Of a stretch of 64,000 nucleotides of DNA, positions 22,450 to 64,000 are shown piece after piece. A program made the position numbers and the translations under genes. Position 1 is the first letter of the stretch. The number at the start of each line of letters is the position of its first letter. This DNA is from Azolla caroliniana (Eukaryota; Plantae; Polypodiophyta). The DNA lies in the NCBI GenBank assembly GCA_043228905.1, contig JBHGNT010000022.1:3100001-3164000 (forward strand). Reading direction: 5' to 3'. The notes beneath the pieces were generated by a model. That model was given only the letters and a program-made list of their open reading frames with translations, was not told the origin of the DNA and searched no databases.

Positions 22450-22772
22450 CCTTCGACATAACTCCAGTAGCCATGGCCAAGCAGGTACTGGTGCATCTTG
22501 TGCGACCAAGACGCGTAGTTGCTCTTGTTGAGCTTCTCAATCGGTAGCGAGCTACCCATACCTTTGTCCATATTGCCGTCTTTTTCTTTTCCGAACAAAA
22601 ACGAAGAACAACTTCAACTCTGTTTTGTCACAACCTTTTCTTGTCGGCTATAGAGGACTTCAACCCTCGCGCTCTGATACCATGTAAAAGAATAGCGTGT
22701 GCGGAAGCATATGCGGAACACAGAGTACACAGTTTGGAGGAATAAGACAGTTCGGTAAAACACAAAAAACGC

Positions 22773-28056: not shown

Positions 28057-28397
28057 ACGCAGAGATGGAGATGGAGATGGAGAAACAGAGAAAGAGAGCA
28101 GACAACAGAAAAACTCAAAATCAAAATAGTGACTTTCTGTGTACATACACTGTGCTCAGTGAGCACCTTTTATACAAGCCCTGACAATCGGGCTGACACA
28201 AGTGCTGACAGTACTTGACGCTCATAAATGAGCGGCTACACTCACTCCCAAAATTATTACTTTCGAGGAATATCTTTCTAACGGCCTCGCGGTGTTGGCA
28301 CCGTTACGGCTTACATTATGCGTAATGTTTCACACCCAATCTACGCATTGGGTTACACACCGTGTTACACACCCAACGTTGAGCTTGTCACTCAACA

Positions 28398-31300
28398 TAC
28401 TCTCATCATCGATGTAACATGAACATGTTTCGTTTTGATGACGAGTTGATTAGGCAATAGGATAAGTGGTTGAGGTGGCCGAGGTGATCTAAGGCGCTAG
28501 ATTAAGGTTCTAGTCCAAAAGGGCGTGGGTTCATATCCCACTCTCATCATCTATGTAAAATGAACATGCTTTGTTTTGGGGACGACTTGATTACGCAATA
28601 CGATAATTGGATGAGGTGGTCGAGTTAGTCTAAGGCGGTGGATTAAGGTTCTAGTCCGAAAGGGCGTGAGTTCAAATCCCACTCTCATCATCGATGTAAA
28701 ATGAACATGCTTTGTTTTTGGGACGACTTGATTACGCAACACGATAAGTGGTTGAGTTGGTCTAAGGCGCTAGATTAAGGTTCTGGGTTGGGTTCAAATC
28801 CCACATTCATCATCGATGTAAAATGAACATGCTTCGTTTTAGCAACGAGTTGATTAGGCGACACGAGAAGTGGATGAGGTTGTCTAAGGAGCTAGATTAA
28901 GGTTCTAGTACGAAAGGGCATGGGTTCAAATGCCATTGTCATCATCAATGTAAAATGAACATGCTTCGTTTTGGGGACGACTTGATTACGCAACACGATA
29001 AGTGGATGAGGTGGCCGAGTTGGTCTAAGGCGCTAGATTAAGGTTCTAGCCCAAAAGGGCGTGGGTTCAAATCCCACTCTCATCATCGATTGAAAATGAA
29101 CATGCTTCATTTTGGGGATGACTTGATTACGCAACTCAATAAGTGGATGAGGTGGCCGAATTGTTCTAAGGTGCTAGATTAAGGTTCTAGTCCGAAAGGG
29201 CATGGTTTCAAATCCCACTCTCATCATCGATGTAAAATGAATATACTTGTTTTGCTGATGAGTTGATTAGGCAATAGGATTAGTGGTGGAGGTGGCAGAG
29301 GTGGTGTAAGGTGCTAGATTAAGGTTAAGGACTGGGTTTATTAGGTAACACGATACGCGGATGAGGTTCTACTGCAAGGCGCTATATTAAGGTTCTAGTC
29401 CAAAAGGGTGTGGGTTCAAATACCATTCTCATCATCCATGTAAAAAGAACATTTTCAATTTGGCAACGAGTTGATTATTATAGGCAACACAGTATGTGGA
29501 TTAGGTGCCCGAGTTGGTCTAAGGTGCTAGATTAAGGTTCTAGTTCGAAATTGCGTGGGTTCAAATCCTACTATTTTTATCGATGTAAAATTAACATGGT
29601 TCGTTTTGGCGAGGAGTTGGTCTAAAGCGCTAGATTCAGGTTCTAGTTCAAAAGGGTGTGGGCTCAAATCCCACCGTCATCATCGATGTAAAACGATCAT
29701 GTTTCGTTTTGGCGACTAGTTAATTAGGCAACACCATAACAGGATGAGGTGGCTGAGTTGGTCTAAAGCGCTAGATTCAGGTTCTAGTAAGAAAGGCCGT
29801 GGGTCCAAATCGCACTGTCATCATCGATGTAAAATGAGCATGTTTCGTTTTGACGACCAATTGACTAGGCAACCCGATAAGTAGATAAGGTGCCCGAGTT
29901 GGTGTAAACCGCTAGATTCAGGTTCTAGTTTGAAAGGGCGTAGGTTCAAAACCCACATTCATTATCGTTGTAAAATGAGCATGTTTCGTTTTAGCGACGA
30001 TTTGATTAGGGAACACGATAAGTGGATGAGGTGGCCGAATTGGTCGAAGGCGCTAGATTAATGTTCTAGTCCAAAAGGGCATGGCTTCAAATCCCACTCT
30101 CATAATCGATGTAAAATGAACAAGCTTTGTTTTGCCGTCGCGTTGATTAAGCACCAAGATAAGTGGATGAGGTGGCCCAGTTGGTATAATGTGCTAGATT
30201 AAGGTTCAGGGTTGGGTTCAAATCTTACTCTGATCATCGATGTAAAATGAACATGCTTCGTTTTGGCGACGAGTTGATTAGACAACATGAGAAGTGGATG
30301 AGGTTGTCTAAGGCACTAGATTAAGGTTCTAGTCCGAAAGGGCGTGGATTCAAATACCACTCTTATTATCGATGTAAAATGAACAAGCTTTGTTTTGGTG
30401 ACGAGTTGATTACGCAACACGATAAGTGGATGAGGTGGCCGAGTTGGGCTAATGTGCTAGATTAAGGTTCTAGTCCGAAAGGGCATGGGTTCAAATCGCA
30501 CTGTCATTATCAATGTAAAATGAGCAAGATTTGTTTTGGCGATAGGTTGATTAGGCAACACGATAAGTGGATGAGGTGACCGAGTTGGTCTAAGGAGCTA
30601 GATTAAGGTTCAGGGCTGGGTTCAAATCCCACTCTGATCATCGATGTAAAATGAACATGCTTCGTTTTCGCGACGAGTTGATTAGGCAAGACATGAAGTG
30701 GATGAGGTTGTCTAAGGCGCTAGATTAAGGTTCTAGTACGAAAGGGCGTGGCTTCAAATCCCACTGTCATCATCGATGTAAAATGAACATGCTTCATTTT
30801 GGGGATGACTTGATTACGCAACATGATAAGTGGATGAGGTGGCCGAGTTGGTCTAAGGCACTAGATTAAGGTTCTTGTCCGAAAGGGCGTGGGTTAAAAT
30901 CCCACTCTCATCATCGATGTAAAATGAATATGCTTGGTTTGGTGGCGATATGATTAGAGAACATGATAAGCGGATGAGGTGGCCGAGTTGGTCTAAGGCG
31001 CTAGATTAAGGTTCTAGTCTGAAAGGGCGTGGGTTCAAATCGCACTCTCATCATTGATGTAACATGAACATGTTTCATTTTGGTGATGAGTTGATTAGGC
31101 AATAGGCTAAGTGGTTGAGGTGGCTGAGGTGGTCTAATGCGCAAGATTAAGGTTCTAGTCGGAAAGGGCGTGGGTTCAAATTCGACTGTCATTATTGATG
31201 TAAAATGAGCATGTTTCGTTTTGGTGACAAGTTGATTAGGCAACATCATTGATGAGTTGATTAGGCCACATGATAAGTAAATGATGTGGCGGAGTTGGTC

Positions 31301-33145
31301 TAAGGTGCTAGATTAAGGTTCTAGTCCGAAAGGGTGTGGGTTCAAATCCCACTCTCATCATCGATATAAAAATAAACATGTTTCGTTTTGGCGAGGAGTT
31401 GATTAGACAACGGGATAGGTGAACGAGTTGTAAAATGAAGAAGCTTCGTTTTGGCGACGAGTTGTTTAGGTAGCCTTATAAGTGGAGGAGGTGGCGGAGT
31501 TAGTCTAAGGCGCTAGATTAAGGTACTAGTCCAAAAGGGTTGGGTTCAAATCCCACTCTCATCATTGATGTAAGATGAACATGCTTTGTTTTGGCGACGA
31601 GTGTATTAGGCAACACGAGAAGTGGATGAGGTTGTCTAAGGTGCTAGATAAAGGTTCTTCTCCAAGAGGGCATGGGTTCAAATCCCACTGTCATCATCGA
31701 TGTAAAACGAAGATGTTTGGTTTTGGTGATGAGTTGATGAGGCAACACAATAAGTCGATGAGGTGGCCGAGTTGTTCTAAGGTGCTAGATTAACATTCTA
31801 GTACCAAATGGCGTGGGTTCAAATCCCATTGTCATCATCGATGTAAAACGAGCATGTTTCATTTTGGCGACAAGTTGATTAGGCAACACCATAAGTGGAT
31901 GAGGTGGCCGAGTTGTTCTAAGGCGCTAGATTTAGGTTCTAGTCCAAAAGGGCATTTTGAATCCACAATCATCATCGATGTAAAACGAGCATGTTTTGTT
32001 TTGGCGACGAGATGATTAGGCAACACAATATGTGGATGAGGTGGTCGAGTTGGTCGAAGGCGCTACATTAACATTCTAGTCCGAAAAGCCGTGGGTTCAA
32101 ATCCTACTCTCATTATCGATGTAAAATGAACTTAAGGCGCTAGAATCATGTTCTAGTCCGAAAGGGCGATTTGAACCCACAGTCATCATTGATGGAAAAC
32201 GAGCATGGTTTGCTTTGGTGATGAGTTCATTAGGCAACACGATAAGTGGATGAGGTGGCCAAGTTGGTCGAAGGCACTAGATTAAGGTTCTAGTCCGAAT
32301 GGGCGGGGGTTCAAATCCAACTCTCATTATCGATGAAAAATGAGCAAGCTTTGTTTTGGTGACGAGTTGATTAGACAATAGGATAGGTGGATGAGGTCGC
32401 GGGGTTGGTCTAAGGCAATAGATTAAGGTTCTAGTTCGAAAGGGAGTGGGTTCAAATCCACTCTCATTATCAATGTAAAATGAACATGTTTCGTTTTAGT
32501 AAGGAGTTGATTAGACAACAGGATAAGTGGTCGAGGTGGTCTAATGTGGTAGATTAAAGTTCTAGTCTGAAAGGGCCTGGGTTCAAATCCCACTCTTATC
32601 ATCGATGTAAAATGAACATGTGTCACTTTTGTGACGCGTTGGTTAGTCAACACGATAAGTGGATGAGGTAGCCGAGTTGGTCAAAGATGGTAGATTTAGA
32701 TTATAGTCAAAGATGGTAGATTTAGATTATAGTCAGAAGGGCGTGGGTTCAAATCCCACTCTCATCATGAATGTAAAAAGAGCATGTTTCGTTTTGGTGA
32801 TGAGTTGATTAGGCAAGACATGAAGTGGATGAGGTTGCCGAGGTGGCCTAGGACACTAGATTAAGTTTCTACTACGAAAGGGCGTGGGTTCATATCCCAT
32901 TCTCATCATCGATGTAAAATGAACATGCTTCGTTTTGGCGACAGGTTGATTAGGGAACACGATAAGTGGATGAGGTGGCCGAGTTGGTCTAAGATTAGAA
33001 CCTCGATTAAGGTTCTACTCCGAAAAAGCGTGGGTTCAAATCCCACTCTTATCATTGGTGTAAAATGAACATGCTTCGTTTGGGTTGATTAGACAATACG
33101 ATAGGTGGATGAGGTGGCCGAGGTTGTCAAAGGCGATAGATTAAG
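28398..33145 (+). repeat. Tandem tRNA-Leu(AAG) array, left part (about 36 mostly degenerate units)
   Basis: About 140-bp unit: 81-nt tRNA plus spacer tcgatgtaaaatgaacatgcttcgttttggcgacgagttgattaggcaacacgataagtg. Confidence 0.95.
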
Positions 33146-36100
33146 TGTTGAGAGACAAGCTCAACATCGGCCGGATCGGTTGAAGAAGCCAAGGACCGGA
33201 TCGGTTGGGACCGATCGGTTAGGCCGAATGCGTAAACCGGTACGCAGACCGGTGCGTAGGTAGGGCCGGATCGGTGCGTAAACCGGGAGGCCGTTAGGAA
33301 AGATATTCCATGAGGAATATATTTGGGAGTTAGTGTAGAAGCTCTTAATGAGCATTGAAGTACTGTCAGTACTTCTGTCAGTCCTTCTAGAACTTGTATA
33401 AAAGTGTTCATTGAACACACATATGTATAGAGTGGTGAATAGAGATTGAGTTTGTTTTTCTTGAATATAGTTCGTGTGTTTTCTCTCTCTCTCTCTCACT
33501 CTCTCTGTCTCTCCCGCGTATACTGCGTAAGCTCAAGCTCTCCATTAAACTTGAGTTTTCTTCCTTCTGTTCGGTCTTCATACTTGCTTCCGCACGCTAC
33601 TTTTTACATGGTATCAGAGCGCGAGGGTTGAGAACCTCTCTGCAACCGACACAGCTTGACGAAGAAGAACAAGAAGAACGATGGATAGAGGCATGGCGAG
33701 CTCGCTTCCAACAGAGAAGCTCGACAGAACCAACTACGCGTCTTGGTCCTACAAGATGCACCAGTACCTGCTCGGGCACGGCTACTGGAGTTATGTCGAA
33801 GGAGCTAATGACGTGGCACCCGAATCGACACACAGAGACTTTCCATCGTGGGAGCAATCGGCGAGCAGGGTATTATACTGCTTCGTGTCGTGTGTGGGCG
33901 AACAACTATTGAGCTATGTTCGGGATGCAAAGACGCCGAAGGGTGCGTGGGAAAATCTGAAGAAGATTTTCGCCGCGAGCACCACAACCAGGAAGCTTCA
34001 GCTCCGACAGAGTTGAGAAACCTACGACAACGCGACTTGTCGGTGGCAGACTATACCTCGAAGATCAAGGATATCTGCGACTCCCTCGCCTCCATAGAGG
34101 TGAACATCGAGGAGGGCGAGATGGTCCAGATCTGTCTCGGAGGTTTGGCGTCAAAGTTCGGAGCGTTCCGAATGGCTGTGTGTACCCGGGAGAATACGCC
34201 GTCCTTTTTCGACTTACAGTCAATGCTCCTGGTAGAGGAGAACCACACGGGTGCGTCTACAAGCCCACACACCGACAACAGAATGTTTTACATGGAGGGA
34301 GATAGGCCCCGTGGACGTGGAGGACGAGGCGAGTCGGCGCGCAATGGAGGCGGCCGACGAGATTAAGGAAGAAGGCACCGAAGTGATGCCGATAGCAACT
34401 CCGGACCCTTCGGAAACAGGGGGAGTCGAAGCGATGAGAACCGGCAAGGGAAGGTCATCGCGGAGTGCTGGTACTGTGGCAAGAAAGGCCACAGGGTAAG
34501 TGAGTGCTCGAAGAAGCGCGCCGATTTGGAGAGAACTGGTTCCGGAAACGGCTCCGGACATACCGACAAGGGAAATCGGCAGCGATCACACTACGCCGAA
34601 GACTCCGGGAGAGCCAGAGAAGGGTCTGCCTTCATGAAGAGACACGAAGCAAACTCAATGAAACAGACCACCCCGAGATCGGACGAGGTGTAGTACGTAG
34701 ACTCCGGAGCGTCAAACCACATGACGAGCCATAAGGAGTAGTTCTCGTACCTTGAAAAACCGATACAACCTGGAGTAGTCGCAACTGGAGACGACACTCC
34801 GCATCCGATCGCGAATGTCGGAGAAGTTCCCCTTAGCCATGTTGGGCAGAAAGGGAAACTCATGAACGTGCTGCACGTTCCGACAATCACGAAGAACTTG
34901 GTCTCGGTCGGACAAATCGTCGACCAAGGGATGGAGGTTCGGTTTACACACCTCGGGTGCTTCATTGAGGAAGAAGGCCGTGTGATTGCGCAAGGGCGCA
35001 GAGACGGGAGGATGTTCATCCTTGACTCCACTGACGGCGGCACCGCAATGTTCGCGAAGGGACAAAAATCTGAGTCGGACATCGACTTGTGGCACAAGCG
35101 GATAGGCCACGTCAACTACCAGCGGCTTCAAGATCCGCAATCGAAACATGTAGTTTTCGGATTGCCCAAATTTAGTGGTCGAAAGGCACAAATTTGTGAA
35201 GCATGCCAGTGCGGGAAGCAACACCGACTTCCTTTCCCAAACGAGTGAAACCAGAGCCGGAACAAGCTCGACCTTATACACTCCGATGTATGGGGGCCGA
35301 CACAAAACGTTAGTCTTGGCGGGAGCCGATATTTCGTCTCCTTCATCGATGACCACACGCGGCACACGTGGATCTACCTCATTGAGAGGAAGAGCGAAGT
35401 CTTCGACTGTTTCCGGGACCTCAAAGGGTTCGTGGAAACGGAAACGGGACGAAAGATCAAGTGCCTGCGGTCGGATGGCGGGAAAGAGTACTTTTCCGGT
35501 CAATTCAACAGTTATCTACAACAAATGGGAATTCGGCGCGAATTCAATTGTAGATACACGCCGGAGCAGAACGGCGTGGCCGAGAGGAAGAATCGGTCAG
35601 TTGTGGAAGCGGCACGGGCAATGCTGGAGGAGAAGAGCTTGCCCAAGTTCTACTGGGTCGAGGCGGTAAGGACTGCGGTATACATCCAGAACCGGATCGG
35701 AGACAAAGTGTCGGCGCACGAGCTATATTTCGGAACAAAACCGAACTTGCGACACTTGAGGGTGTTCGGTAGCATTGCATATGTGCATGTACTGAAGGAG
35801 AAGAGGAGGAAGCTGGACGCAAAGGCCGAGAAATGCATTTTGGTCGGCTACTCGGACGAGCAGAAGGGTTATAAGTGCTATAACCCTCGCACCAAACAAG
35901 CGCGTGTTAGCCGCGACGTTGTGTTTGACGAGTCCGCGTACTGGTACCAGCCCCCAACTCCGAACCCCGACTCCAATCCGAGCTCTGACGATGAGGTCAG
36001 CGAGGCCGAGATACCTCTGGATGAGTCCGAAATCGTGACCCGTGAAGAGAGTCCGATTTCACTCCGTTTAAGTGGATCGATTGGACGACTGAGTTGGTAC

Positions 36101-38868
36101 GACCAGTCCGAGGAAGAGCTAGGGAGTAGTGGAGACTCGGCCGTGCATTCCCCGCGCAATAAGCCGAGGAGACGGCTTACGCGCAAAGAGAAAGGGAAGA
36201 AGAAGGTGTCGGTTCCCGGCACGGATAGGAACGAGTCAGACCGACGCGAGTCCGACTCCGAGGGAACCGGTGACGAGTCTTTAAAGGTGAAGTCCGCGTT
36301 GACCGAGAAGGCCTCGACATCGGCTGATGTGAGATTACGCCGATCTACCCGCCAGAAGAATCCTGTTTTACGGTTCGGATACAACGAGTACATGGCGCAT
36401 CATTATGCGTACATGACTCGTGTAGAGGAAGTGCGTGAGCCGGAGAGCTACGCAGAAGCGGCTAAAGACGCGAATTGGCGTGCCGCGATGGAGGAAGAGA
36501 TGCACGCATTGGCGGAGAACGAGACCTGGGACCTGGTTGACGCACCAACAGGGGTAAATCCGATCAGGTGTAGGTGGGTGTACAAGGTCAAGTACAACAT
36601 CAATGGCTCGGTCAACCGGTACAAGGCTCGGCTAGTGGCAAAGGGCTACGCGTAGAAACACGGCATCGACTACGATGAGATGTTTGCGCCGGTCGCGAAA
36701 ATGACGACCGTCCGTGTTTTGCTCACAGTAGCTGCGGTGAAGGGGTGGCACTTACATCAGATGGATGTAAAGAATGCGTTCCTACAAGGTGACCTTGAGG
36801 AACAGGTGTACATGGTACAGCCCCCCGGATTTCACTCTGGAACGAACTCCCCCGGATTTCACTCTGGAACGAACTCCTCGGCAGTATGCCGACTGAAGAA
36901 GTCCCTTTACGGACTGAAGCAAGCCCCGCGTGCCTGGAACGCGAAGATCACGCAACAACTGCGTCAGATGGGCTTCGTCACGTCAAAATCAGACTCTTCC
37001 CTGTTCATCTGGAAAGGTGGACTCGGACCGGTTAGTATTTTACTATATGTTGATGACTTGGTCATCACCGGCGCCGACCTAGGTGAAATCGATCGCGTGA
37101 AGCTCCAACTTGCGGCATCGTTCGACATGAAGGATCTGGGGAACCTTCATTACTTCCTCGGGATCGAAGTGATCCGTACCCCTGAAGGCATATTGATCAG
37201 CCAACGTCATTACGTGCTGAGTATGCTCTTCAAATTCGGGATGGCCGACTGTAAGTCCGTCTCGACTCCTCTAGACAGAACCGTCAAGCTTCGTCCTGAT
37301 ACGTGAAAGGTATGCGACCCGACGAGGTTCCGACAAATTGTCGGAAGCCTCATATACTTGACCATCACCTGACCCGACCTCAGTTATCCGGTTGGAGTGA
37401 TCAGTCAGTTCATGGCACGACCTTCCGACGAGCACCTTCAGTGTGCGCAATGCATACTTTGGTATGTCAACGACACTAAGGACCGGGGACTGCTATATCG
37501 GACTGGTGCAGCCATGCAGTTAGTCGGCTACACCGATGCTGATTGGGCTGGGAACGCCACTGATTGCCGATCCACGTCCGGATACGCCTTCTCCCTCGTG
37601 AGTGCCGCGATTGCGTGGAGCAGTAAGAAGCAGCCGATAGTTACACTGTCGAGCATCAAAGCTGAGTACCGAGGAGCGGCTGTCACGACATGTGAAGCCA
37701 TATGGTTGAAGCGGCTACTTAAGGACCTGCAAGGGGAGGTGTCAGATCCGACGACGATCTACTGCGACAACCTCAGCAGCATCCAGCTCGCAAAAAACCT
37801 CATTTTTCACGCACGGACCAAGCACATTGAGGTGCACTACCATTTCGTCCGTGAGCGTCTCCTTTCCGGTGAAGTCGAACTTCAGTACGTTTCGATAGAT
37901 TGGCAGACTGCCGACATCTTCACCAAGCCTCTTGGTCTGGACAAGTTGTGGCAATTCTCAGGTGCGCTTGGATTGCGTCACCTAGACGTGCCAAACTTGA
38001 GGGGGAGAACAGTCCCGAACGACCAAGCAAGGCAGCAAGAAAGGAGTGGAGACCGCGACACCGAGTTGGTTGACTCGGTTGTCAAGTTTGACTTCGGATC
38101 GGCTGAAGAAGCCGAGGGCGGACCCGTGGAAAAGTCCGGAAGCGGACAGAAGGGAAACAGCCGAAGGAGAGAGCCAAAGCCAACCACGCATGGGGAAGAT
38201 GACGCCATCGAGGGCGAGAAGACCGAAGACAAGTTGGAGACAGCCAACTCGGACGAGGGCGAAAACCAATCGGAGGTAGCCGAGTCGGTTCAGATGTTTG
38301 ATTCAGATACGCTGAATCAACCAAGGCCCAATCGGAAGAAAAGGCAGCAGGAGAAGCGTCAACACCGCAACAACAGAAGAGTTGATAAGGGCCACATGAG
38401 CAGACAAGCCGACTGAAAGGGTCGAAGCGCGCGGAGTCGAACAGGTCGAGGAGCGCGAGCGAGGCGTGAAGCCAAGAGGAACCAGAGCTGTGAGCCCGAA
38501 GATCCCGAAGAGCCTCAAGTTGAGCTTGAGGGGGAGTGTTGAGAGACAAGCTCAACATCGGCCGGATCGGCTGAAGAAGCCGAGGACCGGATCGGTTGGG
38601 ACCGATCGGTTAGGCCGAATGCGTAAACCGGCACGCAAACCAGTGCGTAGGTAGGGTCGGATCAATGCGTAAACCGGGAGGCCGTTAGGAAAGATATTCC
38701 GTGAGGAATATATTTGGGAGTTAGTGTAGAAGCTCTTAATGAGCATTGAAGTACTGTCAGTACTTCTGTCAGTCCTTCTAGGACTTGTATAAAAGTGTTC
38801 ATTGAACACACATATGTATAGAGTGGTGAATAGAGATTGAGTTTGTTTTTGTTGAATATAGTTCTCGT

Positions 38869-38910
<42 letters not shown>

Positions 38911-39003
38911 GCGTATACTGCGTAAGCTCAAGCTCTCCATTAAACCTGAGTTTTCTTCCTTCTATTCGGTCTTCATACTTGCTTCCGCACGCTACTTTTT
39001 ACA
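33146..39003 (+). mobile_element. Full-length Ty1/Copia retrotransposon with stops and frameshifts
   Basis: LTRs 33146-33608 and 38537-39003; TSD TTAAG; PBS-Met at 33609; PPT 38528-38536; gag, DSGAS protease, integrase (RSDGGKEY, QNGVAER), RT (HQMDVKNAFL, YVDD), RNase H (YTDADWAG). Confidence 0.97.
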
Positions 39004-39676
39004 TTAAGCTTCTAGTCTGAAAGGGCATGGGTTGAAATCCCACTCTCATAATTGATGTAAAATGAACAATTGTCGTTCTGGGGACGGTTGATTAGGCAAC
39101 ACGATAAGTGGATGAGGTGGCCGAGTTGGTCTAAGGCGCTAGATTAAGGTTCTAGTCCGAAAGAGCATGGGTTTAAATCCCACTCTCATCATCGATGATA
39201 ATAAGCATGAATCGTTTTAGAGACGAGTTATTAGGCAATACACTATATGCATGAGGTGGCCGAGTTGGTCTAAGGATCTAGATTAAGCTTTTAGTCCGAA
39301 AGGGCATGTGGTCAAATCCAACTCTCATCATCGATGTAAAGTTAACATGCTTTGTTTTGGCGACGAGTTGCTTAGGGAACACGATAAGTGGACGAGGTGG
39401 CCGAGTTGGTCTAAGGTTAGAACCTAGATTAAGGTTCTAGTCCGAAAACGCGTGGGTTCAAATCCCACTCTCATCATCGGTGTAAAATAAACATGATTCG
39501 ATTTGGCGATGGGTTGATTAGCCAACACGACAAGTGGATGAGGCGGTCGAGTTGTTCTAAGCCGCTAGATTAAGGTTCTACTCCAAAAGGGCGTGGGTCC
39601 AAATCGCACTCTCATCATCGATATAAAATGAACAAGCGTTGTTTTGGTAACAGTTGAGTAGGCAACACAATAAGTG

Positions 39677-39757
39677 GATGAGGTGGCCGAGTTGGTCTAA
39701 GGCGCTAGATTAAGGTTCTAGTCCGAAAGGGCGTGGGTTCAAATCCCACTCTCATCA
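39677..39757 (+). tRNA. tRNA-Leu(AAG), consensus-intact copy
   Basis: GATGAGG/TCTCATC acceptor stem, GCC/GGC D stem, CTAGA-TTAAGGT-TCTAG anticodon arm, CCGAAAGG long variable arm, GTGGG-TTCAAAT-CCCAC, discriminator A, T-run downstream. Confidence 0.85.
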
Positions 39758-40242
39758 TCGATGATAATAAGCATGCATCGTTTTGGAGACGAGTTATTAG
39801 GCAATACACTATATGCATGAGGTGGCCGAGTTGGTCTAAGGATCTAGATTAAGCTTTTAGTCTGAAAGGGCATGTGGTCAAATCCAACTCTCATCATCGA
39901 TGTAAAATTAACATGCTTTGTTTTGGAGACGAGTTGCTTAGGGAACACGATAAGTGGACGAGGTGGCCGAGTTGGTCTAAGGTTAGAACCTAGATTAAGG
40001 TTCTAGTCCGAAAACGCATGGGTTCAAATCCCACTCTCATCATCGGTGTAAAATAAACATGATTCGATTTGGCGATGGGTTGATTAGCCAACACGACCAG
40101 TGGATGAGGCGGTCGAGTTGTTCTAAGCCGCTAGATTAAGGTTCTACTCCGAAAGGGCGTGGGTCCAAATCGCACTCTCATCATCGATATAAAATGAACA
40201 AGCGTTGTTTTGGTAACAGTTGAGTAGGCAACACAATAAGTG

Positions 40243-40323
40243 GATGAGGTGGCCGAGTTGGTCTAAGGCGCTAGATTAAGGTTCTAGTCTGAAAGGGCGT
40301 GGGTTCAAATCCCACTCTCATCA
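40243..40323 (+). tRNA. tRNA-Leu(AAG), near-intact copy
   Basis: One C>T in the variable arm (G-U wobble still possible). Confidence 0.7.
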
Positions 40324-41334
40324 GCGATGTAAAATGATCATGCTTTGTTTTTGCGACGGGTTCATTTGGGAACACGATAAGTGGATGAGGAGGCCGAGTT
40401 GGTCTAAGCCGTTAGTTTAGGGTTGAAATGCCACTCTCATCATAGATGTAAAGTGAACATGCTTCGTTTTGGCAACGAGTTGATTAGGCAACACGATAAG
40501 TGGATGAGGTGGCCTACTTGGTTTAAGGTTAAAACCTAGATTAAGGTTCTAGTCCGAAAATGCGTGGGTTCAAATCCCACTCTCATCATCGGTGTAAAAT
40601 GAACATTCTTCGATTTGGCGACGGGTTGATTAGCCAACACGATAAGTGGATGAGGTGGCCAAGTTGTTCTAAGCCACTAGATTAAGGTCCTACTCCGAAA
40701 GGGTGTGGGTCTAAATCGCACTCTCATCATTGATGTAAAATGAGCAAGCATCGTTTTGGTAATGGTTGATTAGGCAACACAATAAGTGGATGAGGTGGCC
40801 GAGTTGGTCTAAGACGCTAGATTAAGGTTCTAGTCCGAAAGGGCGTGGGTTCAAATCCCACTCTCATCAGCGATGTAAAATGATCATGCTTTGTTTTTGC
40901 GACGGGTTCATTTGGGAACACGATAAGTGGATGAGGAGGCCGAGTTGGTCTAAGACGTTAGTTTAGGGTTGAAATGCCACTCTCATCATATATGTAAAGT
41001 GAACATGCTTCGTTTTGGCAACGAGTTGATTAGGCAATACGATAAGTGGATGAGGTGGCCTACTTGGTTTAAGGTTAAAACCTAGATTAAGGTTCTAGTC
41101 CGAAAATGCGTGGGTTCAAATCCCACTCTCATCATCGGTGTAAAATGAACATTCTTCGATTTGGCGACGGGTTGATTAGCCAACACGATAAGTGGATGAG
41201 GTGGCCAAGTTGTTCTAAGCCACTAGATTAAGGTCCTACTCCGAAAGGGCGTGGGTCCAAATCGCACTCTCATCATTGATGTAAAATGAGCAAGCGTCGT
41301 TTTGGTAATGATTGATTAGGCAACACGATAAGTG

Positions 41335-41415
41335 GATGAGGTGGTCGAGTTGGTCTAAGGCGCTAGATTAAGGTTCTAGTCCGAAAGGGCGTGGGTTCAA
41401 ATCCCACTCTCATCA
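41335..41415 (+). tRNA. tRNA-Leu(AAG), near-intact copy
   Basis: One C>T in the D stem (U-G wobble). Confidence 0.7.
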
Positions 41416-41576
41416 TCGATGTAAAATGAACATGCTTTGTTTTTTGTGATGGGGGTATTAGGCGCTAGATTAAGGTTCTAGTCAGAAAGGATGTGGGTTG
41501 AAATCCCACTGGCATAATTCATGTAAAATGAACAACCGTCGTTCTGGGGACGGTTGATTAGGAAACACGATAAGTG

Positions 41577-41657
41577 GATGAGGTGGCCGAGTTGGTCTAA
41601 GGCGCTAGATTAAGGTTCTAGTCCGAAAGGGCGTGGGTTCAAATCCCACTCTCATCA
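41577..41657 (+). tRNA. tRNA-Leu(AAG), consensus-intact copy
   Basis: Identical to 39677-39757; followed by a T6 run about 25 nt downstream. Confidence 0.85.
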
Positions 41658-44600
41658 TCGATGTAAAATGAACATGCTTTGTTTTTTGTGATGGGGGTAT
41701 TAGGCGCTAGATTAAGGTTCTAGTCAGAAAGGATGTGGGTTGAAATCCCACTGGCATAATTCATTTAAAATGAACAACCGTCGTTCTGGGGACGGTTGAT
41801 TAGGAAACACGATAAGTGGATGAGGTGGCCGAGTTGGTCTAATGCGCTAGATTAAGGTTCTAGTCCGAAAGGGCGTGGGTTCAAATCCCACTCTCATCAT
41901 CGATGTAAAATGAACATGCTTTGTTTTTGTGATTGGGGTACTAGGCGCTAGATTAAGGTTCTAGTAAGAAAGGACGTGGGTTGAAATCCCACTGTCATAG
42001 TTAGCCTCCGGATTGTACGCTGTGGTGAGCAAGAGTTTAATCCCTAGCCAGTCAAACAGCTCTACCGCCTCTTGCGCGTCCAATTCTCCGTAGTCGGCCA
42101 CGATCTTACTTATGCACCCGTATCGGCATACCACTTCTTCAATCAGAAATCGGCACACGGCCGCAGTCGTTTTGTTCTGCAATGCTCGGTCTTCCACCTG
42201 GTTCATCAGGTTCTCTCGAACCAGCACAAGATACCGTATCTGCCCTACCCCAATCGACATCGTCACCAGATCCACCATCCACTTAAAGTGGACGGTCGGA
42301 GGGTAGGTCGGGTGCAGCTCGTCCCGAGGTCGGACTATGGAGTGCACCTGACAGCTTTCGCAAGTCGTCACGAACTGTTGCACGTCCCGGTATAGTCCCG
42401 GCCACCGGTACTTCCCCTTTAGCTTCTCGAATGTGGCGCGCGTCCCACGGTGTCTGGCCCAAGGATTCTCGTGGTATGCCGTCAGCAATTCTTCCTGTTC
42501 CTCTTTCTTCGCCACCACTCGGAGCGGGATGCCGTTTCTCTTCTTCGGGTGCTTCCATATGCTCTCGTCCTGTAGGAAGAATTGGTACACTTTCTTCCGA
42601 ATCCGGTTGGTCTCTTCCTTTGTCCACGCCGCGTCCGGTGTCATTGTTTTTAGGAACCTGCCGATGTGGAGCCACTCCCCGTCGTACTTGCTCTCATCGA
42701 ATTCGTTAAGCGCCGGAGTGCTCCCCTTTCTTGTTGTTACGTAAGCCGCCTCGAAGAAGTCCACGCCGACTTCCTCGTCCTCCGAAACCATGCCGTCCTC
42801 ATCATCGAACCTCGCTCTCGAAAGCATATCGGCCATGGCATTGTCCTTCCCGGAAATGTGTCGTATTTCCGGATTCAGGGACTTGATGTACGCTATCCAC
42901 CTGAGCATTGCCATGTCCGACGTCACGCATCCGGAAACCATGCCGAGAATTGGTAGGCAGTCCGTCTCGATTATCACCTCTGTCCCGATCAGGTAGTCTT
43001 TATTGGCCTTGACCGCCGAAATGATACCCCAGAGTTCTCGTTTAACCTGGGCGTATCCGAACTGGATGGGGAACCTCGCGCTATCGTCATGCTCTTGGTT
43101 GATCACCCATCCGATCCCAGTCGAAATCGTGTCTACGGTCACGTAAATCAGAGTGGCTTTGCCGTAGACAGCCTTTCGGTGTGCCGGTGCTGCGGCAAGT
43201 GCTCCTTTCATCTTCCGAACCGACTCCGTATGCTCGTCTCTCCACTCGAATTTACGCCCTTTCTTCAGCAACCCATAGAGCGGCTCCGCGACGTGGGCGT
43301 AATGCGGGATCCAGATATGGTAGAATGCACATGCTCCCAGGAATCTCCGAACCTCTGTAACCGAATTGCAGTCTTGCTTCATCGTGGAGATGGCCTCCAC
43401 CTTGGCCGGAGACGGTTTTCGACCGTATGGCCTGCATAGGTGTCTGACTACCAGGATCTCCGGCTGTCCAAAGGCTGATTTTTCTCTGGAGAAGGTGAGC
43501 CGCGTGCTCTCAAGTCTATGTAGCACCTTCTCGCAGTCGTGGATGTGATCCGTCATGAACCTCCGACAACCTTTGACCGGCGAAGGCCTCCGCGAACTCG
43601 TCTATGGTCGGTCCGATTCTTGCGTTCCGAATGGTCACCTTGTTGACCGGCTGCAGGTCTTGAATAAAGCGCAACGTGCCGTTCTTCTTTGGCACGGTAA
43701 ACCACCGATTCGAGTATGGGGTACTAGACGGTTCGAGGATGCCCATCTCCACCTTCTGTTTCAGCAGCTCCATCAACTTTGGGATGTGAGCTCTGGGTAC
43801 ATGCGGTACTATGAAGATCACCATTGGTTCCACAACTGTCGGGTCTACGCACCCGATCTCCTCCGGTGAGAATGTGAAAGCCTTCCCGTGCCTCCCGAGC
43901 ATTCTCCGAAACCGGTCCTCTTCCACCGGCAGTAGAAAGCCACCCCCACCGATCTTGAGCTTTCGTAGCGTTATGTCGGTGAATGTGTGTCCTATACTGG
44001 CCGAATCTCGTAAACTTGGGTCCGATGCGACCCCCTTTATCCGTAACTCGCTGCCCTCCGGCAACGGTGCCGCGACTGGCCTCACCTTTTGGCCCACTGT
44101 CTTGTACTTCGTATCCACTCAGGCCGTCCGATTCGACTCGAGTCCATTACCGAAGTCGGCGATGACTTCGTACATGTTTTCCGAACTTACCGGAATCGTC
44201 CGGTCCTCATTAAGGCCTTCTCTGAACACCTCCCGTAACTTCCCTAAGGTGTCGTCAAAAGAGACCACCTCCACGGCTCCGTTGATTTCCTCTTCAGGGC
44301 CGAGGACTCCACATGCCCGAAGTCGCTCCTCTGCCCACTTCTTTTCCCGGCCAACTACGTCAACTATTATGCAACCTCCGCTATCAGAGAACCAAAATTT
44401 CCTACCTATGGTACATGTCTTTTTGCCTATAGTACATCGGTGGGGTTTTTCCGGGGTGTCCGGACTATCGCAACCCCACGCCTTGATAGCCCTCTCTAAA
44501 AATCCGAGGGGTTTTTCGCCACCGAGGGTCTCGTGGTTATGCTCATGGTTCGGTCGCACCGTCAGGAACTGGACCGAGTGACGCCCTTCCTGGCTCTTGA

Positions 44601-46564: not shown

Positions 46565-49500
46565 TGTCGTAGTGTAGGTTGCACACTATGTGGAAATTAT
46601 ATTTTTGTCCCTCCGGATAGAGAATGGAGTGCTCGGTGAGAACCGGAAGAAAACGGCATACCGGCAAGGAGGAAAACGGCATACCGGAGGAAAAACGGCA
46701 TACCGGCAAGGAAGAAAACGGCATACCGGCAAGGAAGAGCCGGATAAAGAGACATAAATGTAAAAAAAAGGAATTACTCACTACTGCGCAGGGCGTGATT
46801 CGAACTCTGCACCTCCACGTTGACACACCCCAACCTTACCATTACATTAAATTATCTTAAGTGTTTTAAATATAGATTTAATATGTATAAGACCTTTATT
46901 TATGCATACCTTTATTAAAAGGTAAATCGTGTATTTTTTTAATATATGAAAAAGAAAAAAAACACGAGACACTAAAAAATAACTCATGCACATCTAGCGT
47001 GCATGAGCCCTATACTTAGGAAATAAATAAAAAAGCATCACATGCACATTTAGTGGACATGAACACTTTTTGTAAAAAAAAAAGCATGAAGCCATGCTTA
47101 GCTCTTCTTTCCTTATATAAGGAGGAGAGAAATATGTAAAGGGTTGTTGATTATTTGGATTAAGAATTAATCAATACAAAAATTACTCGTGGGATTCACG
47201 ATTTATACATCTACTTCTCTCTTAACACCTTAAGTACCAATTAATATAGTATACTCGTGTGATTCACGAGTTTCTTATCTTTCTCTTTGCTATTTACTCA
47301 TAATTAATCTCTATCTCACGAACTTCTTTCTCCTAGTCCAAGACCTCTGTGGTTCCCACCCGACTCACGCAACGATCCGGAGCCGAAAGGCACGACACAG
47401 TTGGTGAACCCGACGTGAAGACGGGTGGCAAGGAGATGGAGGCTCAACAAGCTAACAATATGATGGCGATGTTCGAACGGATGCTTCAAGAACAACGCAC
47501 GATGTCGGAGATTTCGGCATCAGTAGAGCGGCTCGTGCAACGCAACGGGCAATTTAATGGTAAGGATGTGTCGCGATATTTGCAGGACTACAAGGCGGAG
47601 ATGCTCCGGTGCCGGGCTTCGGAAGGACTGCAAGTGACATCCTTTAACCGGGTGGCGACCGACGGGCTTCAAGGGAGTATCCACGGGTTGCAACAACAAA
47701 ATCCGACGTGGGAAGCATTCGAAGAGGCGTTAAAGACCACGTTTGCCATCGAGGACTCCTCCAAGGCAACGCGGAGGGGATTCGAGGATTGGGTGGAAAC
47801 GTCAGGTAAGGGGCTGAAGGTCCTCGAAGTGTTTTCGACATTCGAAAGTCGGTTCGGGAGGTTGTCCGCGAGAGATCAAACTATTCTTGCACCGGACAAA
47901 GTCATCATGTTTTTGCGAGCTGTGGACGTCCGGGACCGGAAAGATCTCGGAGTGCTTCTTGAGGACACGACCACCGAAAGCGGCCTCACCGAAACAAGTA
48001 CGAATCGGCCCGGATGGGGCATCTACGTACACGGCCGTAACCGGAGGAATGAAGAAACAATACCGACAAGTGGAGGATAAGTTACGGTCGGCATCAATAA
48101 TAAAAGAAGACGAAGAAATCGTGGGAGTGATCGAGGAAGTGTTCTATGGGAATACACTACAACGGCTTGAAGAGCTTGCGGAAGATAAAAGCCAAGGGAA
48201 CCGGGTAGTCCCGGTGGAATCGGTCGAGATGTACGAGATCGTTGCGAAAATGGGGCCGGATGCGCTCCGCAAAGAAGAAGCAATGGTAAGTACGAAATAC
48301 AAGACCGTGGAGAAGAAGGTGAAACCGGCCGCGGGACCACTACCCGCCGATAGCGAACAAAAGAAGAAAGAAGTCTCGGGAGATCCGACACTTCGGAAGT
48401 CTGTGGATATCGGACATGCCTTCACAGATGAGACCCGGAAGAAACTTCGGATCGGTGGAGGTGGGTTCCTCTTACAAGAAGAAGAAAAACGGTTTCGAGA
48501 GATGTTGGAGCAACACGGCAAAGCATTCGCGTTCACATTGAGGGAGATCGGATGCATTGATCCAAAGATAGTGGAGCCGATGGTGATTTTCACGATTGAT
48601 CATGTACCGTGGAACCTGAAGCCGATTCCGGTGCCACGGGCGCATATTCCGAAAGTCATCGACTTACTCAAGGAGAAGGTGGCGATGGGGATTCTAGAGC
48701 CATCGAGTGCTCCGTACTCAAATCGATGGTTTACGGTTCCGAAGAAGAATGGGTCACTCCGATTCATCCAAGACTTGCAACCGGTGAACAAGGTCACGAT
48801 CCGGAACTCGGGAGTCGGTCCGATAGTGGACGAATTCGCGGAAGCTTTTGCCGGACGTGCGATATACTCCATCGGGGACCTATACTCGGGGTATGACCAA
48901 TTCCAACTAGCCGTGGAGAGCCGAGACATCACTACCATGCGGACACCGATAGGACTAGTTCGAATGTGCACACTACCACAAGGAGCGACAAACTCGGTTG
49001 CACATATGATGAACGCGATGAACAAGGTGCTTCGAGATTGCATCCCGGAGATAACGATGCCGTTTCTAGATGACATTCCGATGAAAGGATGCGCGGTGGA
49101 AGAAAAAGATGAGACTATGGATGATCGGGGATGCCGAAAGTTCGTGGTCGACCATATTCATGATTGCGAGAAAGTGTTGCGAAAGCTAGAAGATGTGCAC
49201 CTAACACTTTCCGGGGAGAAATCGGCATTCGGGCAAGAAGAAATATTGGTGGTCGGACATCTATGTGGACCCTACGGCCGAAGACCGTCACCAACAAAGA
49301 TCGATGCGATTCAAGCTATGAAGGAAGTATGTGAGTCAACATCGGAAGTCCGAAGGTTTCTGGGTGCGTGTGCATTCTATCACATATGGATTCCGCACTA
49401 TGCACATATAGCGGACCCGCTCTATCACTTGTTGCGGAAAGGTAAGAAATTCGAGTGGAAACCGGAACACACTAAAGCCATGAGGAAGCTCAAGAAGACA

Positions 49501-52364
49501 CTATGGAGGGCGGAATCACTTAAGAAGCCAAGCTACGAGCGGCCAATCATAGTAACGGTTGATACAAGTCCAACCGGTATCGGGTGGGTCATCAATCAAG
49601 CCGACTCGGATGGTTCGCGGTATCCGATCCGATTTGGAGCAAAGGTCCTCAACGAAAGGCAACGCGGATATGCACAAGTCAAAAGAGAATTGTGGGGAGT
49701 CGTGTCGGCGATAAAATCGGATCGGAATTATTTGATCGGAGCTGAAGTGGTGATCGAGACGGATTGTCTTCCGATACTCGGGATGATGCGGTGTTGTACG
49801 ATACCGGATGTGGCTATGCTAAGGTGGATTGCATATGTCAAGTCACTTAATCCGGAGGTTCGACACATCTCGGGGAAGGACAACGCGGTAGCGGACATGT
49901 TATCGAGGGCGCGGTTTGAAGACGACATAACCGAATCAGATAATGAAGAAGTTTCCGAAGACTACTTCACGTCAGAACACATATGCCGAGTGAACGTGAT
50001 CCGAGAATTCCGGGAAGAAGAATACGAGGGGGAAACCTTGATGATCGGGAAGATGCTACAAGAGGTCGAGGATTCAACCAATGATAAAGAAAGGAGAGCC
50101 GAGATCCGAAGGAAGAAGAGGCAAGTCCAAAAGTTCTTCTTGGAAAACGGTTTAATATGGAGGACGCCGAAAAGACCGGATGGGATACCACTTCGAGTAG
50201 TCGGGACGAAAGAGCAACGAAACCGGATAATGTCTGAGTTCCACGAATCCGATTGGGCTGGACATCGAGGAACATGGGCAACTTTTGTGAAAATCAAGCA
50301 AAGATATTGGTGGAAGAACATGTATAAAAATGTCGCGGAGTTCACAGAAAGCTGCGAGAAATGTCAAGTCTACTCCGGGGTCCGACACCGAGATGAGCTG
50401 CATCCGACATTCTCACCGACAATCAACTTCAAGTGGATGGTCGACATTGTAGCTATGCCGACCGGGATTGGACAAAAGAAATACTTGGTGTTAGCTCGAG
50501 AAGATCTCACAAACCAAGTTGAAGGTCGAGCGCTTCGGAGGAAAACGTGTGCCGCGGTGTGCCAATTTCTTTTGGAAGAAGTGTTTTGTAGGTACGGCTG
50601 CGTAGGACAAGTGATTGCGGACCGGGGAGAACTCGACTCGGACAAAGCTAGGGGATTCTTCGCCAAACATGGAGTTCGGTTAACGTTGACAACGGCCTAC
50701 AATCCGGAGGCCAACGGGAAGATCGAACGAGGACATAGTCCGATCGTGAAAGCACTTGCGAAGGCATGCGACGGAAGGGTGAAGGATTGGCCACAAATGC
50801 TTCCGTATGCACTATGGGCGGATCGGACGACGCATAGCTCCGTGACCGGTTACATGCCGGCAGAACTCATGACCGGACAAGCACCGGTAATGCCAACGGA
50901 AACCGCAATCGCGACATGGACAATACTACCGTGGAAGGAAGAGATGAGCCGGGAAGAACTACTAGCGGTCCGGATACGACAACTGGAGGGAAGACCGAAA
51001 GATGTAGCGGAAGCGTCACGCCGACAACAAGAAGCACGGTTCCGGAACAAAAGCCGGTTCGACACAAAGCACCGACTACGACCGAGGAGGATTGAAGAAG
51101 GAGATTGGGTGATCGTCTATGATAGTAGCTTGGACCATCAACATACAACGATGCGGAAATTCGCGAAAAGGTGGTTCGGGCCGTACGAGGTTCGGAAGGT
51201 CTTCGACAACGGGACGTACCGACTGTCCGAGTTGGATGGAACAATACTACGAGTGCCTATAGCCGGGAAGCGGGTGAAGATTTTCAAGAAGCGGACCGAC
51301 GACAAACCTTATGTGATCCAAGTCGAGGCCGACAACGAGGAGCAATCGGACGAAGACCACAATGATGCGGGAAGCGAAGAAAGTGGATTACAACTCATAG
51401 TCGACATAAGGGGAGAATCGGAGGAAGCTTCGGATGAAGACGGATACGAAGAATCAAGAACTTCGGCACATACCGGAGGATGTGCGGGTTTGGAGGGGGC
51501 GAGTGTCGTAGTGTAGGTTGCACACTATGTGGAAATTATATTTTTGTCCCTCCGGATAGAGAATGGAGTGCTCGGTGAGAACCGGAAGAAAACGGCATAC
51601 CGGCAAGGAGGAAAACGGCATACCGGCAAGGAGGAAAAACGGCATACCGGCAAGGAGGAAAACGGCATACCGGCAAGGAAGAAAACGGCATACCGGCAAG
51701 GAAGAGCCGGATAAAGAGACATAAATGTAAAAAAAAGGAATTACTCACTACTGCGCAGGGCGTGATTCGAACTCTGCACCTCCACGTTGACACACCCCAA
51801 CCTTACCATTACATTAAATTATCTTAAGTGTTTTAAATATAGATTTAATATGTATAAGACCTTTATTTATGCATACCTTTATTAAAAGGTAAATCGTGTA
51901 TTTTTTTAATATATGAAAAAGAAAAAAAACACGAGACACTAAAAAATAACTCATGCACATCTAGCGTGCATGAGCCCTATACTTAGGAAATAAATAAAAA
52001 AGCATCACATGCACATTTAGTGGACATGAACACTTTTTGTAAAAAAAAAAGCATGAAGCCATGCTTAGCTCTTCTTTCCTTATATAAGGAGGAGAGAAAT
52101 ATGTAAAGGGTTGTTGATTATTTGGATTAAGAATTAATCAATACAAAAATTACTCGTGGGATTCACGATTTATACATCTACTTCTCTCTTAACACCTTAA
52201 GTACCAATTAATATAGTATACTCGTGTGATTCACGAGTTTCTTATCTTTCTCTTTGCTATTTACTCATAATTAATCTCTATCTCACGAACTTCTTTCTCC
52301 TAGTCCAAGACCTCTGTGGTTCCCACCCGACTCACGCAACGATCCGGAGCCGAAAGGCACGACA
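46565..52364 (+). mobile_element. Young Gypsy retrotransposon with an internal gag/protease deletion
   Basis: LTRs 46565-47397 and 51504-52364; TSD GCGC; PBS TGGTGAACCCGACGTGA at 47402; PPT ggagggggcgag. Confidence 0.97.
47887..51516 (+). CDS. Gypsy pol ORF (RT-RNase H-integrase with GPY/F motif; no protease, no chromodomain seen)
   Basis: DLYSGY, LPQG, FLDD, VDTSPTGIG, H..H..CEKC, ADRG, NGKIER, WFGPY; uninterrupted; stop lies inside the 3' LTR; true start uncertain. Confidence 0.9.
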   Translation: MHRTKSSCFCELWTSGTGKISECFLRTRPPKAASPKQVRIGPDGASTYTAVTGGMKKQYRQVEDKLRSASIIKEDEEIVGVIEEVFYGNTLQRLEELAEDKSQGNRVVPVESVEMYEIVAKMGPDALRKEEAMVSTKYKTVEKKVKPAAGPLPADSEQKKKEVSGDPTLRKSVDIGHAFTDETRKKLRIGGGGFLLQEEEKRFREMLEQHGKAFAFTLREIGCIDPKIVEPMVIFTIDHVPWNLKPIPVPRAHIPKVIDLLKEKVAMGILEPSSAPYSNRWFTVPKKNGSLRFIQDLQPVNKVTIRNSGVGPIVDEFAEAFAGRAIYSIGDLYSGYDQFQLAVESRDITTMRTPIGLVRMCTLPQGATNSVAHMMNAMNKVLRDCIPEITMPFLDDIPMKGCAVEEKDETMDDRGCRKFVVDHIHDCEKVLRKLEDVHLTLSGEKSAFGQEEILVVGHLCGPYGRRPSPTKIDAIQAMKEVCESTSEVRRFLGACAFYHIWIPHYAHIADPLYHLLRKGKKFEWKPEHTKAMRKLKKTLWRAESLKKPSYERPIIVTVDTSPTGIGWVINQADSDGSRYPIRFGAKVLNERQRGYAQVKRELWGVVSAIKSDRNYLIGAEVVIETDCLPILGMMRCCTIPDVAMLRWIAYVKSLNPEVRHISGKDNAVADMLSRARFEDDITESDNEEVSEDYFTSEHICRVNVIREFREEEYEGETLMIGKMLQEVEDSTNDKERRAEIRRKKRQVQKFFLENGLIWRTPKRPDGIPLRVVGTKEQRNRIMSEFHESDWAGHRGTWATFVKIKQRYWWKNMYKNVAEFTESCEKCQVYSGVRHRDELHPTFSPTINFKWMVDIVAMPTGIGQKKYLVLAREDLTNQVEGRALRRKTCAAVCQFLLEEVFCRYGCVGQVIADRGELDSDKARGFFAKHGVRLTLTTAYNPEANGKIERGHSPIVKALAKACDGRVKDWPQMLPYALWADRTTHSSVTGYMPAELMTGQAPVMPTETAIATWTILPWKEEMSREELLAVRIRQLEGRPKDVAEASRRQQEARFRNKSRFDTKHRLRPRRIEEGDWVIVYDSSLDHQHTTMRKFAKRWFGPYEVRKVFDNGTYRLSELDGTILRVPIAGKRVKIFKKRTDDKPYVIQVEADNEEQSDEDHNDAGSEESGLQLIVDIRGESEEASDEDGYEESRTSAHTGGCAGLEGASVVV

Positions 52365-54090: not shown

Positions 54091-54146
54091 TAACATTAAC
54101 TACTTTCGCAAGACACTTAATTTTTGTGGATAAATCTAGTGACCGA

Positions 54147-57948: not shown

Positions 57949-58093
57949 AAGTCACCCTATCAATACATTGTACTAGAAAACTGAAAAACATCCACTTGGA
58001 GTTCACTATTAATTTTGATGATTGACAAATGAATTGATATATTTCGTCTTTCTTCCAAAGGGTTTATGCCTCTCAACCACTTGTACTTATCTT

Positions 58094-58980: not shown

Positions 58981-59062
58981 AATTGAAACAGTATTTTGGT
59001 ATCCAAATAGTTCAATTTCAGACATCACTAACAACTAAAGTTCAAGTACAATCGAAAGACAA

Positions 59063-63968: not shown

Positions 63969-64000
63969 GTACTAGAAGAAAACTCAAGCAATTACCATCA

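What the first reader, a model, noticed from the sequence alone, without database searches (positions are those of the whole stretch)
28398..41998. tRNA satellite: about 58 head-to-tail tRNA-Leu(AAG) units
Seen: about 7.7 kb of 140-bp units, each a Leu-AAG tRNA plus a conserved spacer with a TTTT terminator about 25 nt downstream and CAA upstream. At least two perfect cloverleaves and several near-perfect ones remain among many point-mutated or deleted copies. Known: tandem tRNA clusters exist in plants (e.g. Arabidopsis Pro and Ser-Tyr). Inference: a tRNA transcription unit turned into a nucleosome-sized satellite in TE-dense chromatin; it may act as a TFIIIC barrier or centromere-like repeat, or as a source of tRNA fragments or siRNA. 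I do not know of a described Leu-AAG array of this kind.
Basis: partly seen in the sequence, partly recalled or inferred. Interest (0 to 1): 0.85.

Follow-up and report, generated by a model that had tools for sequence, protein, structure and literature searches.

The report
Decaying tandem leucine-tRNA gene array
A plant genome, likely from a non-seed plant, carries 58 head-to-tail 141-base repeats of one leucine tRNA gene, most of them decayed as fast as the DNA between them and only five looking intact, so it is likely a silenced, ageing tRNA gene cluster of a kind known in plants rather than a centromere.

Summary
The array is real: 58 units (57 with tRNA), consensus 141 bp (81-bp tRNA-Leu(AAG) + 60-bp spacer), 7.74 kb in two blocks split by a copia element that landed in an anticodon loop. 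Both outer ends abut broken retrotransposons. It is present in runs of three studies. Five tRNAs are intact, two perfect. Without CpG transitions, tRNA and spacer decayed alike (7.5% vs 8.6%, p=0.15); A-box, TTTT and anticodon are not spared; CAA sits at -14, outside the usual window. So most copies are pseudogenes with a methylation signature. The exception is one or two lineages in young higher-order repeats that keep a near-perfect tRNA (modest, post-hoc support). Read depth gives no sign of a high-copy centromeric satellite. New context: the same tRNA body forms a second array family with a 249-bp unit in a related organism and probably in this one; the 141-bp unit may derive from it. Single-isotype tRNA clusters are known in plants, including a moss; I found no plant Leu-AAG one, but one key supplement was unreadable. 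No RNA evidence either way. The scan had not noted this array on other DNA.

The parts
28399..33145 (+). Left array block: stub plus units 2-36 and the 5' part of unit 37; old, units mostly 6-18% from their nearest neighbour
29005..29085 (+). Intact tRNA-Leu(AAG), unit 6 (2 substitutions, no broken pair); only fully intact copy of the left block
33146..39003 (+). Ty1/copia LTR retrotransposon inserted in the anticodon loop of unit 37; LTRs 33146-33608 and 38537-39003, TSD TTAAG, primer site after the 5' LTR, broken gag-pol
39004..41998 (+). Right array block: rest of unit 37 to unit 59, built of higher-order repeats
39192..40323 (+). Two copies of a 566-bp four-unit higher-order repeat, 1.6% apart; fourth unit holds the good tRNA
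40324..41415 (+). Two copies of a 546-bp four-unit higher-order repeat, 1.7% apart; fourth unit holds the good tRNA
41416..41998 (+). 242-bp two-unit higher-order repeat (2.4 copies, 0.8% apart): one deleted unit plus one near-perfect unit followed by a T5-T6 run
39677..39757 (+). tRNA-Leu(AAG) identical to array consensus (unit 42)
40243..40323 (+). Intact tRNA-Leu(AAG), unit 46 (1 substitution)
41335..41415 (+). Intact tRNA-Leu(AAG), unit 54 (1 substitution)
41577..41657 (+). tRNA-Leu(AAG) identical to array consensus (unit 56)
28151..28397 (-). Start of the LTR of a second, related copia element that cuts the array's left end; the LTR's primer-site end lies at 22642-22709, beyond a nested insertion
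42000..44349 (-). Gypsy pol fragment abutting the array's right end with no LTR between (inferred deletion junction)

Best explanation
This is a single-isotype tandem cluster of a tRNA-Leu(AAG) gene that likely grew by unequal crossing-over, was likely methylated and silenced among retrotransposons, and has since lost most copies to neutral decay, while a few intact copies in recently duplicated blocks likely still serve, or recently served, as tRNA genes. Shown: unit structure, pseudogenisation of most copies, equal non-CpG decay of tRNA and spacer, CpG-biased transitions, copia insertion, young higher-order repeats each with one good tRNA, and a sister array family of the same tRNA with a 249-bp unit. 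Inferred: unequal crossing-over, methylation and silencing, order of events (array, then copia, then higher-order duplications), selection on the intact copies, and descent of the 141-bp unit from the 249-bp unit.
For: Only 5 of 31 full-length indel-free copies are intact. With one unit per each of 45 lineages and CpG transitions removed, spacer 8.6% vs tRNA 7.5% (p=0.15); singletons 1.97% vs 1.96%. CpG transitions 17% and 15% vs 7.5% and 4.8% at other C/G. Stem changes do not preserve pairing (51 of 196 kept). Higher-order pairs differ 0.8-1.7%, the copia LTRs 3.0%, units 17% pairwise. Since the older four-unit split the good slot changed 1-2 of 81 tRNA bases but 7 of 58 spacer bases, other slots 23-25 of 220 (p 0.004-0.03); 0.04 perfect copies expected among 45 lineages. 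Five of the six T5+ runs follow near-perfect tRNAs. Arabidopsis clusters are methylated and silent (PMC7544208, abstract) and the Ser-Tyr-Tyr array is modelled by unequal crossing-over and drift (PMC2886086, abstract).
Against: Selection on the intact copies rests on one or two independent lineages picked after the fact; dropping the probably non-orthologous first slot gives p 0.04-0.23; per-unit tRNA divergence is only mildly overdispersed (p 0.03-0.10); the matching slot in L001 has 9 tRNA substitutions. Gene conversion or crossover chimeras would mimic selection. Raw tRNA divergence is still lower than spacer (8.9% vs 11.6%, p=6e-4) and the B-box is borderline spared, so weak array-wide constraint is not excluded. 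No methylation or expression data were seen.
Confidence: 0.6

Rival explanations
1. The array is a wholly dead, selectively neutral satellite; the intact copies are chance survivors or conversion products, multiplied by recent duplication.
For: Equal non-CpG decay; no sparing of A-box, TTTT or anticodon; one perfect lineage among 45 has P=0.04 by chance; same slot damaged in L001; CAA outside the usual window, upstream AT only 50%.
Against: Two independent perfect lineages would have P=7e-4; perfect tRNAs sit beside spacers with 8 of 59 changes; longer T runs follow them; in the 249-bp family tRNA diverged half as much as spacer (38 of 604 vs 149 of 1168).
Confidence: 0.27
2. The array would act as a TFIIIC-bound chromatin barrier or nuclear anchor, needing boxes rather than working tRNAs.
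For: 20 of 58 units keep both A- and B-box; B-box changes 34 vs 45 expected (P=0.052). A human tRNA tandem repeat is proposed as a boundary (PMC4041453, search listing only).
Against: No host gene was identified in the window to insulate (27 ORF stretches scanned, only transposon-type or no domains); transposons lie on both sides and inside; A-box not spared.
Confidence: 0.07
3. The array would be a centromeric, nucleosome-phased satellite.
For: 141-bp unit, higher-order repeats and retrotransposon-dense surroundings; further family members exist outside the window.
Against: Only 7.7 kb; units 17% apart; unit length varies 68-166 bp; listed array contigs have single-copy-like depth of 7-31, and summed depth is 24-1,050 against 93,000-320,000 inside the copia (not a copy number). 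Plant tDNAs are reported to be excluded from centromeres (PMC13437025, abstract).
Confidence: 0.03
4. The units would be tandemly amplified tRNA-derived SINEs rather than tRNA genes.
For: tRNA-related head with many decayed copies.
Against: The consensus is a complete cloverleaf with discriminator base; no A-rich tail or target-site duplications between units; related organisms C and D carry the tRNA body without this spacer.
Confidence: 0.02

Closest known systems
Plant tDNA homoclusters (Arabidopsis Pro, maize Ile and Ala, barley Gln; PMC13437025 sections 7 and 10, passages, Tables S1, S3 searched; PMC11700998 passages)
   Same: One isotype, same orientation, 5 or more genes within 5 kb, uniform flanks.
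   Different: Leu-AAG: all 30 AAG entries of Table S3 are animal, though a Leu-TAG homocluster is listed in Brassica oleracea. Far tighter (141 bp), mostly pseudogenes, with higher-order repeats.
Ceratodon purpureus tandem tRNA arrays (PMC12652284, passages and section 3.1)
   Same: Large tandem arrays in a non-seed plant (26, 18, 14 identical genes; repeats up to 37 times), including Ala-TGC/Leu-CAG.
   Different: Those named are Ile-AAT, Cys-GCA and mixed units of identical high-confidence genes; this one is Leu-AAG and largely decayed. Supplement tables S7-S9 could not be read and might list a Leu-AAG cluster.
Arabidopsis Ser-Tyr-Tyr array (PMC2886086 abstract; PMC7544208 abstract and section 13)
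   Same: Regularly spaced tandem tDNA near heterochromatin; unequal crossing-over, drift, methylation silencing.
   Different: Three-gene unit over about 40 kb with few pseudogenes and reported cell-type reactivation (PMC13437025 passage); here one gene per 141 bp and at most about a tenth intact.
Entamoeba tRNA arrays (PMC2652664, search listing and start of abstract)
   Same: Head-to-tail tRNA gene arrays.
   Different: There they are the main tRNA source, over 10% of the genome, with STR spacers; here a small, decaying locus without STRs.
5S rDNA arrays with long and short spacer classes (recalled, no call)
   Same: Pol III gene in tandem with two spacer length classes and birth-and-death turnover.
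   Different: The gene is a tRNA; whether either class is the main source of this tRNA is unknown.

Membership tests
Plant tDNA homocluster | At least 5 tRNA genes within 5 kb | tested here: met
   9 ARAGORN genes in 39111-41899, 4 of them fully intact plus 2 with one broken pair
Plant tDNA homocluster | Single isotype, same orientation | tested here: met
   All hits on + strand; CAG/AAC calls are point mutants of the same unit
Plant tDNA homocluster | Flanks more uniform than dispersed paralogs | tested here: met
   Shared 60-bp spacer; other flanks seen as loose ends
Plant tDNA homocluster | Methylated and transcriptionally silent (Arabidopsis) | tested here: inconclusive
   CpG-biased transitions are indirect; no bisulfite or usable RNA data
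Centromeric satellite | Very high copy number, long homogeneous arrays | tested here: not met
   7.7 kb, 17% pairwise divergence, low depth; whole genome not held, so other loci are judged from contig depth only
Centromeric satellite | CENH3 occupancy | not testable with these tools
   No ChIP data
TFIIIC/tDNA barrier | Conserved B-box | tested here: inconclusive
   34 changes vs 45.1 expected, P=0.052
TFIIIC/tDNA barrier | TFIIIC binding at a chromatin boundary | not testable with these tools
   No ChIP data
tRNA-derived SINE | Degenerate tRNA head, tail and TSDs, dispersed copies | tested here: not met
   Full cloverleaf consensus, head-to-tail units without tail or TSD; dispersed monomers not searched genome-wide
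Dicistronic tRNA-snoRNA | Trailer is a known structured RNA | tested here: not met
   Only tRNA reaches Rfam gathering score in window, L001, L002; 60-bp spacer folds no better than shuffles

The most novel reading that the evidence does not exclude
In this plant lineage tRNA-Leu(AAG) is kept like 5S rDNA, in tandem arrays with a long (249-bp) and a short (141-bp) class; the short class was born by deletion from the long one and is a satellite caught forming from a tRNA gene, in which selection keeps exactly one working tRNA, with a lengthened terminator, per higher-order repeat.
Probability: 0.2. Interest if true: 0.62.

Novelty: new variant of a known kind. Interest (0 to 1): 0.36.

Why it matters
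Plant tRNA-cluster surveys use high-confidence genes and drop pseudogenes, so compact, mostly decayed arrays like this are easy to miss. This locus gives a dated series (old units, a copia insertion, young higher-order repeats) and copy-specific variants, which make it possible to test whether clustered tRNA genes are kept by selection or drift, an open question in the 2026 surveys (PMC13578239 passage). If the 249-to-141-bp descent holds, it is a traceable case of a satellite arising from a Pol III gene. If all copies are dead, it is an ordinary decayed cluster.

Tried and rejected
No whole genome is held, so no genome-wide count or chromosomal position. Viral contigs: 0 matches. Host identity unresolved: best named relatives were a fern for the copia (40%) and a liverwort for the gypsy (64%), with closer unnamed metagenome proteins. 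Supplement of PMC12652284 unreadable. Spacer as decayed tRNA 5' half: visible by eye but not significant (133 and 336 of 2000 shuffles; reverse-complement control 94 of 500). Whole 60-bp vs 168-bp spacer homology: not significant (430 of 1000; 36 of 500); only the first 28 bases with cheap gaps score (1-21 of 1000; control 68 of 500), a window chosen by eye on 7 related spacers. Raw tRNA-vs-spacer difference (p=8e-6) rejected as proof of selection: non-independent units and CpG content. The deficit of pair-keeping stem changes not read as a signal: shared alleles. tRNA-targeted copia insertion: not claimed; two insertions in a transposon-dense window. A tRNA-like motif seen in the gypsy LTR got no tRNA match. 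Paper searches listed no plant Leu-AAG array; the library lacks most subscription papers. Earlier-findings look-ups showed no such array.
Full report
Observation. The array is there. A profile of one tRNA copy gave 61 hits; two are weak chance hits and two units are hit twice, leaving 57 tRNA-bearing units, all on the + strand. A wrap-around alignment of the two blocks gives a 10-bp stub and 58 units with a 141-bp consensus: 60-bp spacer plus 81-bp tRNA. Array DNA is 7,742 bp. ARAGORN genes and Rfam 23. Of 31 full-length, indel-free copies, 5 keep every stem pair, the AAG anticodon and the invariant bases; 2 equal the consensus. TTTT is at +25 and CAA at -14; the usual plant CAA window is -10 to -3 (PMC13437025 section 7), met by 8 of 58 units.

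Surroundings. A copia element (33146-39003) splits unit 37 in its anticodon loop, with a 5-bp target duplication; its LTRs differ by K=0.040, or 13 of 429 sites outside the microsatellite. The left end is cut by the LTR of a related copia, and the right end abuts gypsy pol without an LTR, so the original length is unknown. Of 27 ORF stretches scanned, those with hits matched transposon-type domains (one weak DUF4283). The host is likely a non-seed land plant: best named relatives are from a fern and a liverwort; this is not resolved. No genome is held.

Not an artefact, not high-copy. Nine of 14 listed runs hold part of the left block. Three laid runs from three studies (organisms A, A, B; one may be the source) have array contigs of 142-348 bases, many with 0-4 differences; one contig of the second study bridges the copia-array junction. 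The listed array contigs have depth 7-31. Summed depth is 24-1,050 over array bins against 93,000-320,000 inside the copia (the tool warns this is no copy number).

History. Units average 17% apart, and the left block has few close pairs. The right block is built of young higher-order repeats: two four-unit pairs (1.6% and 1.7% apart) and a two-unit repeat (0.8%). If rates are similar, the order is array, copia insertion, higher-order duplications (inferred).

Selection. Raw divergence from consensus is 11.4% in spacer and 8.3% in tRNA, or 11.6% and 8.9% with one unit per each of 45 lineages. Removing CpG transitions leaves 8.6% vs 7.5% (p=0.15), and singletons are equal. CpG sites show two to three times more transitions than other C/G, as expected of methylated DNA (established knowledge). 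A-box, TTTT and anticodon are not spared; the B-box is borderline. So most copies decay neutrally. The exception: each higher-order repeat holds one near-perfect tRNA. Across the older four-unit split that slot changed 1-2 of 81 tRNA bases but 7 of 58 spacer bases, against 23-25 of 220 in other slots, and five of six T5+ runs follow such copies. This rests on one or two lineages chosen after the fact; without the doubtful first slot p is 0.04-0.23, and conversion would look the same.

Relatives. A metagenome scan with a 37-base tRNA pattern found 2 loci. L001 is the same 141-bp family: its last 266 bases equal units 53-54, the rest is 13-20% diverged and differently ordered, and its copy of the 'good' slot has 9 substitutions. 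L002 is a second array of the same tRNA body with a 249-bp unit and 168-bp spacer; there tRNA diverged 38 of 604 vs spacer 149 of 1168 (8 of 9 tRNA hits and 7 spacers used, not independent). Laid on one window unit at 80%, organism D gave 440 contigs, none on the 60-bp spacer, with loose ends that match the L002 consensus by eye at 26 of 30 upstream (58 contigs) and 29 of 30 downstream (34 contigs); one 413-base contig holds two copies. Organism A gave 656 contigs, covering the spacer, plus L002-like ends (22 of 30, 6 contigs) and a further spacer variant absent from the window. Organism C gave 23 contigs with unlike flanks. So tandem amplification of this tRNA is a lineage trait with at least two unit classes. 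The first 28 spacer bases resemble a deleted form of the long spacer (1-21 of 1000 shuffles), but whole-spacer tests are not significant: a lead, not a result.

Expression. No RNA holder is listed and the one guessed-RNA run laid nothing; this says nothing either way.

Literature seen. PMC13437025: abstract, passages, sections 7 and 10, Table S1 whole, Table S3 by search: plant clusters are compact homoclusters, mainly Pro, Ser/Tyr, Gln, Ala, Ile; all 30 AAG entries are animal; Leu-TAG (Brassica oleracea) and Leu/Val (Selaginella) clusters are listed; 25 of 179 'Leu' places were seen. PMC13578239: abstract, passages, section 6. PMC12652284: passages and section 3.1: the moss Ceratodon has large tandem arrays, clusters reach 110 genes; supplement unreadable. 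PMC11700998: passages. PMC7544208: abstract, section 13. PMC2886086 and PMC10701932: abstracts. PMC2888827: passages. Nine searches listed no plant Leu-AAG array.

Verdict. A real tDNA homocluster, meeting the published definition, unusual in isotype, compactness, decay and higher-order structure. Best read as birth-and-death of a silenced cluster with a few surviving genes (0.6); wholly neutral 0.27; barrier 0.07; centromere 0.03. New variant of a known kind, interest 0.36.

Noticed in passing
window about 52930-64000: DNA-transposon-like element: + strand ORFs 54084-55798 and about 57000-57948 split by a 146-bp array (55995-57002), and a minus-strand gene region with a 52-bp palindrome-rich array (60928-62068); no Pfam hit. 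Resembles the Sola-type elements noted elsewhere in this genome.
   Followed up: no
window 46565-52364: Young gypsy element with 861-bp LTRs 96.7% identical and an open 1,232-aa pol frame, nested at the end of an older minus-strand gypsy; related LTR at 16692-17306.
   Followed up: partly
L002:1809-1958: The 168-bp spacer of the 249-bp array folds better than shuffles (z=-2.2, 6 of 200) and its first T4 is at +76, so a transcript would carry a 75-nt trailer; no Rfam family matches.
   Followed up: partly
runs of organism A laid on window 28945-29145: A further unit of about 139 bp with a different spacer middle exists in organism A but not in the window, so other arrays lie elsewhere in the genome.
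   Followed up: no
window 29743-29823, 31757-31837, 32035-32115: Decayed copies with switched anticodons (CAG, AAC) on a leucine-type body; all have broken stems, so likely not working mistranslators.
   Followed up: partly
window about 46790-46850, minus strand: A-box/B-box-like motif seen by eye inside the gypsy LTR; no tRNA match in Rfam.
   Followed up: partly
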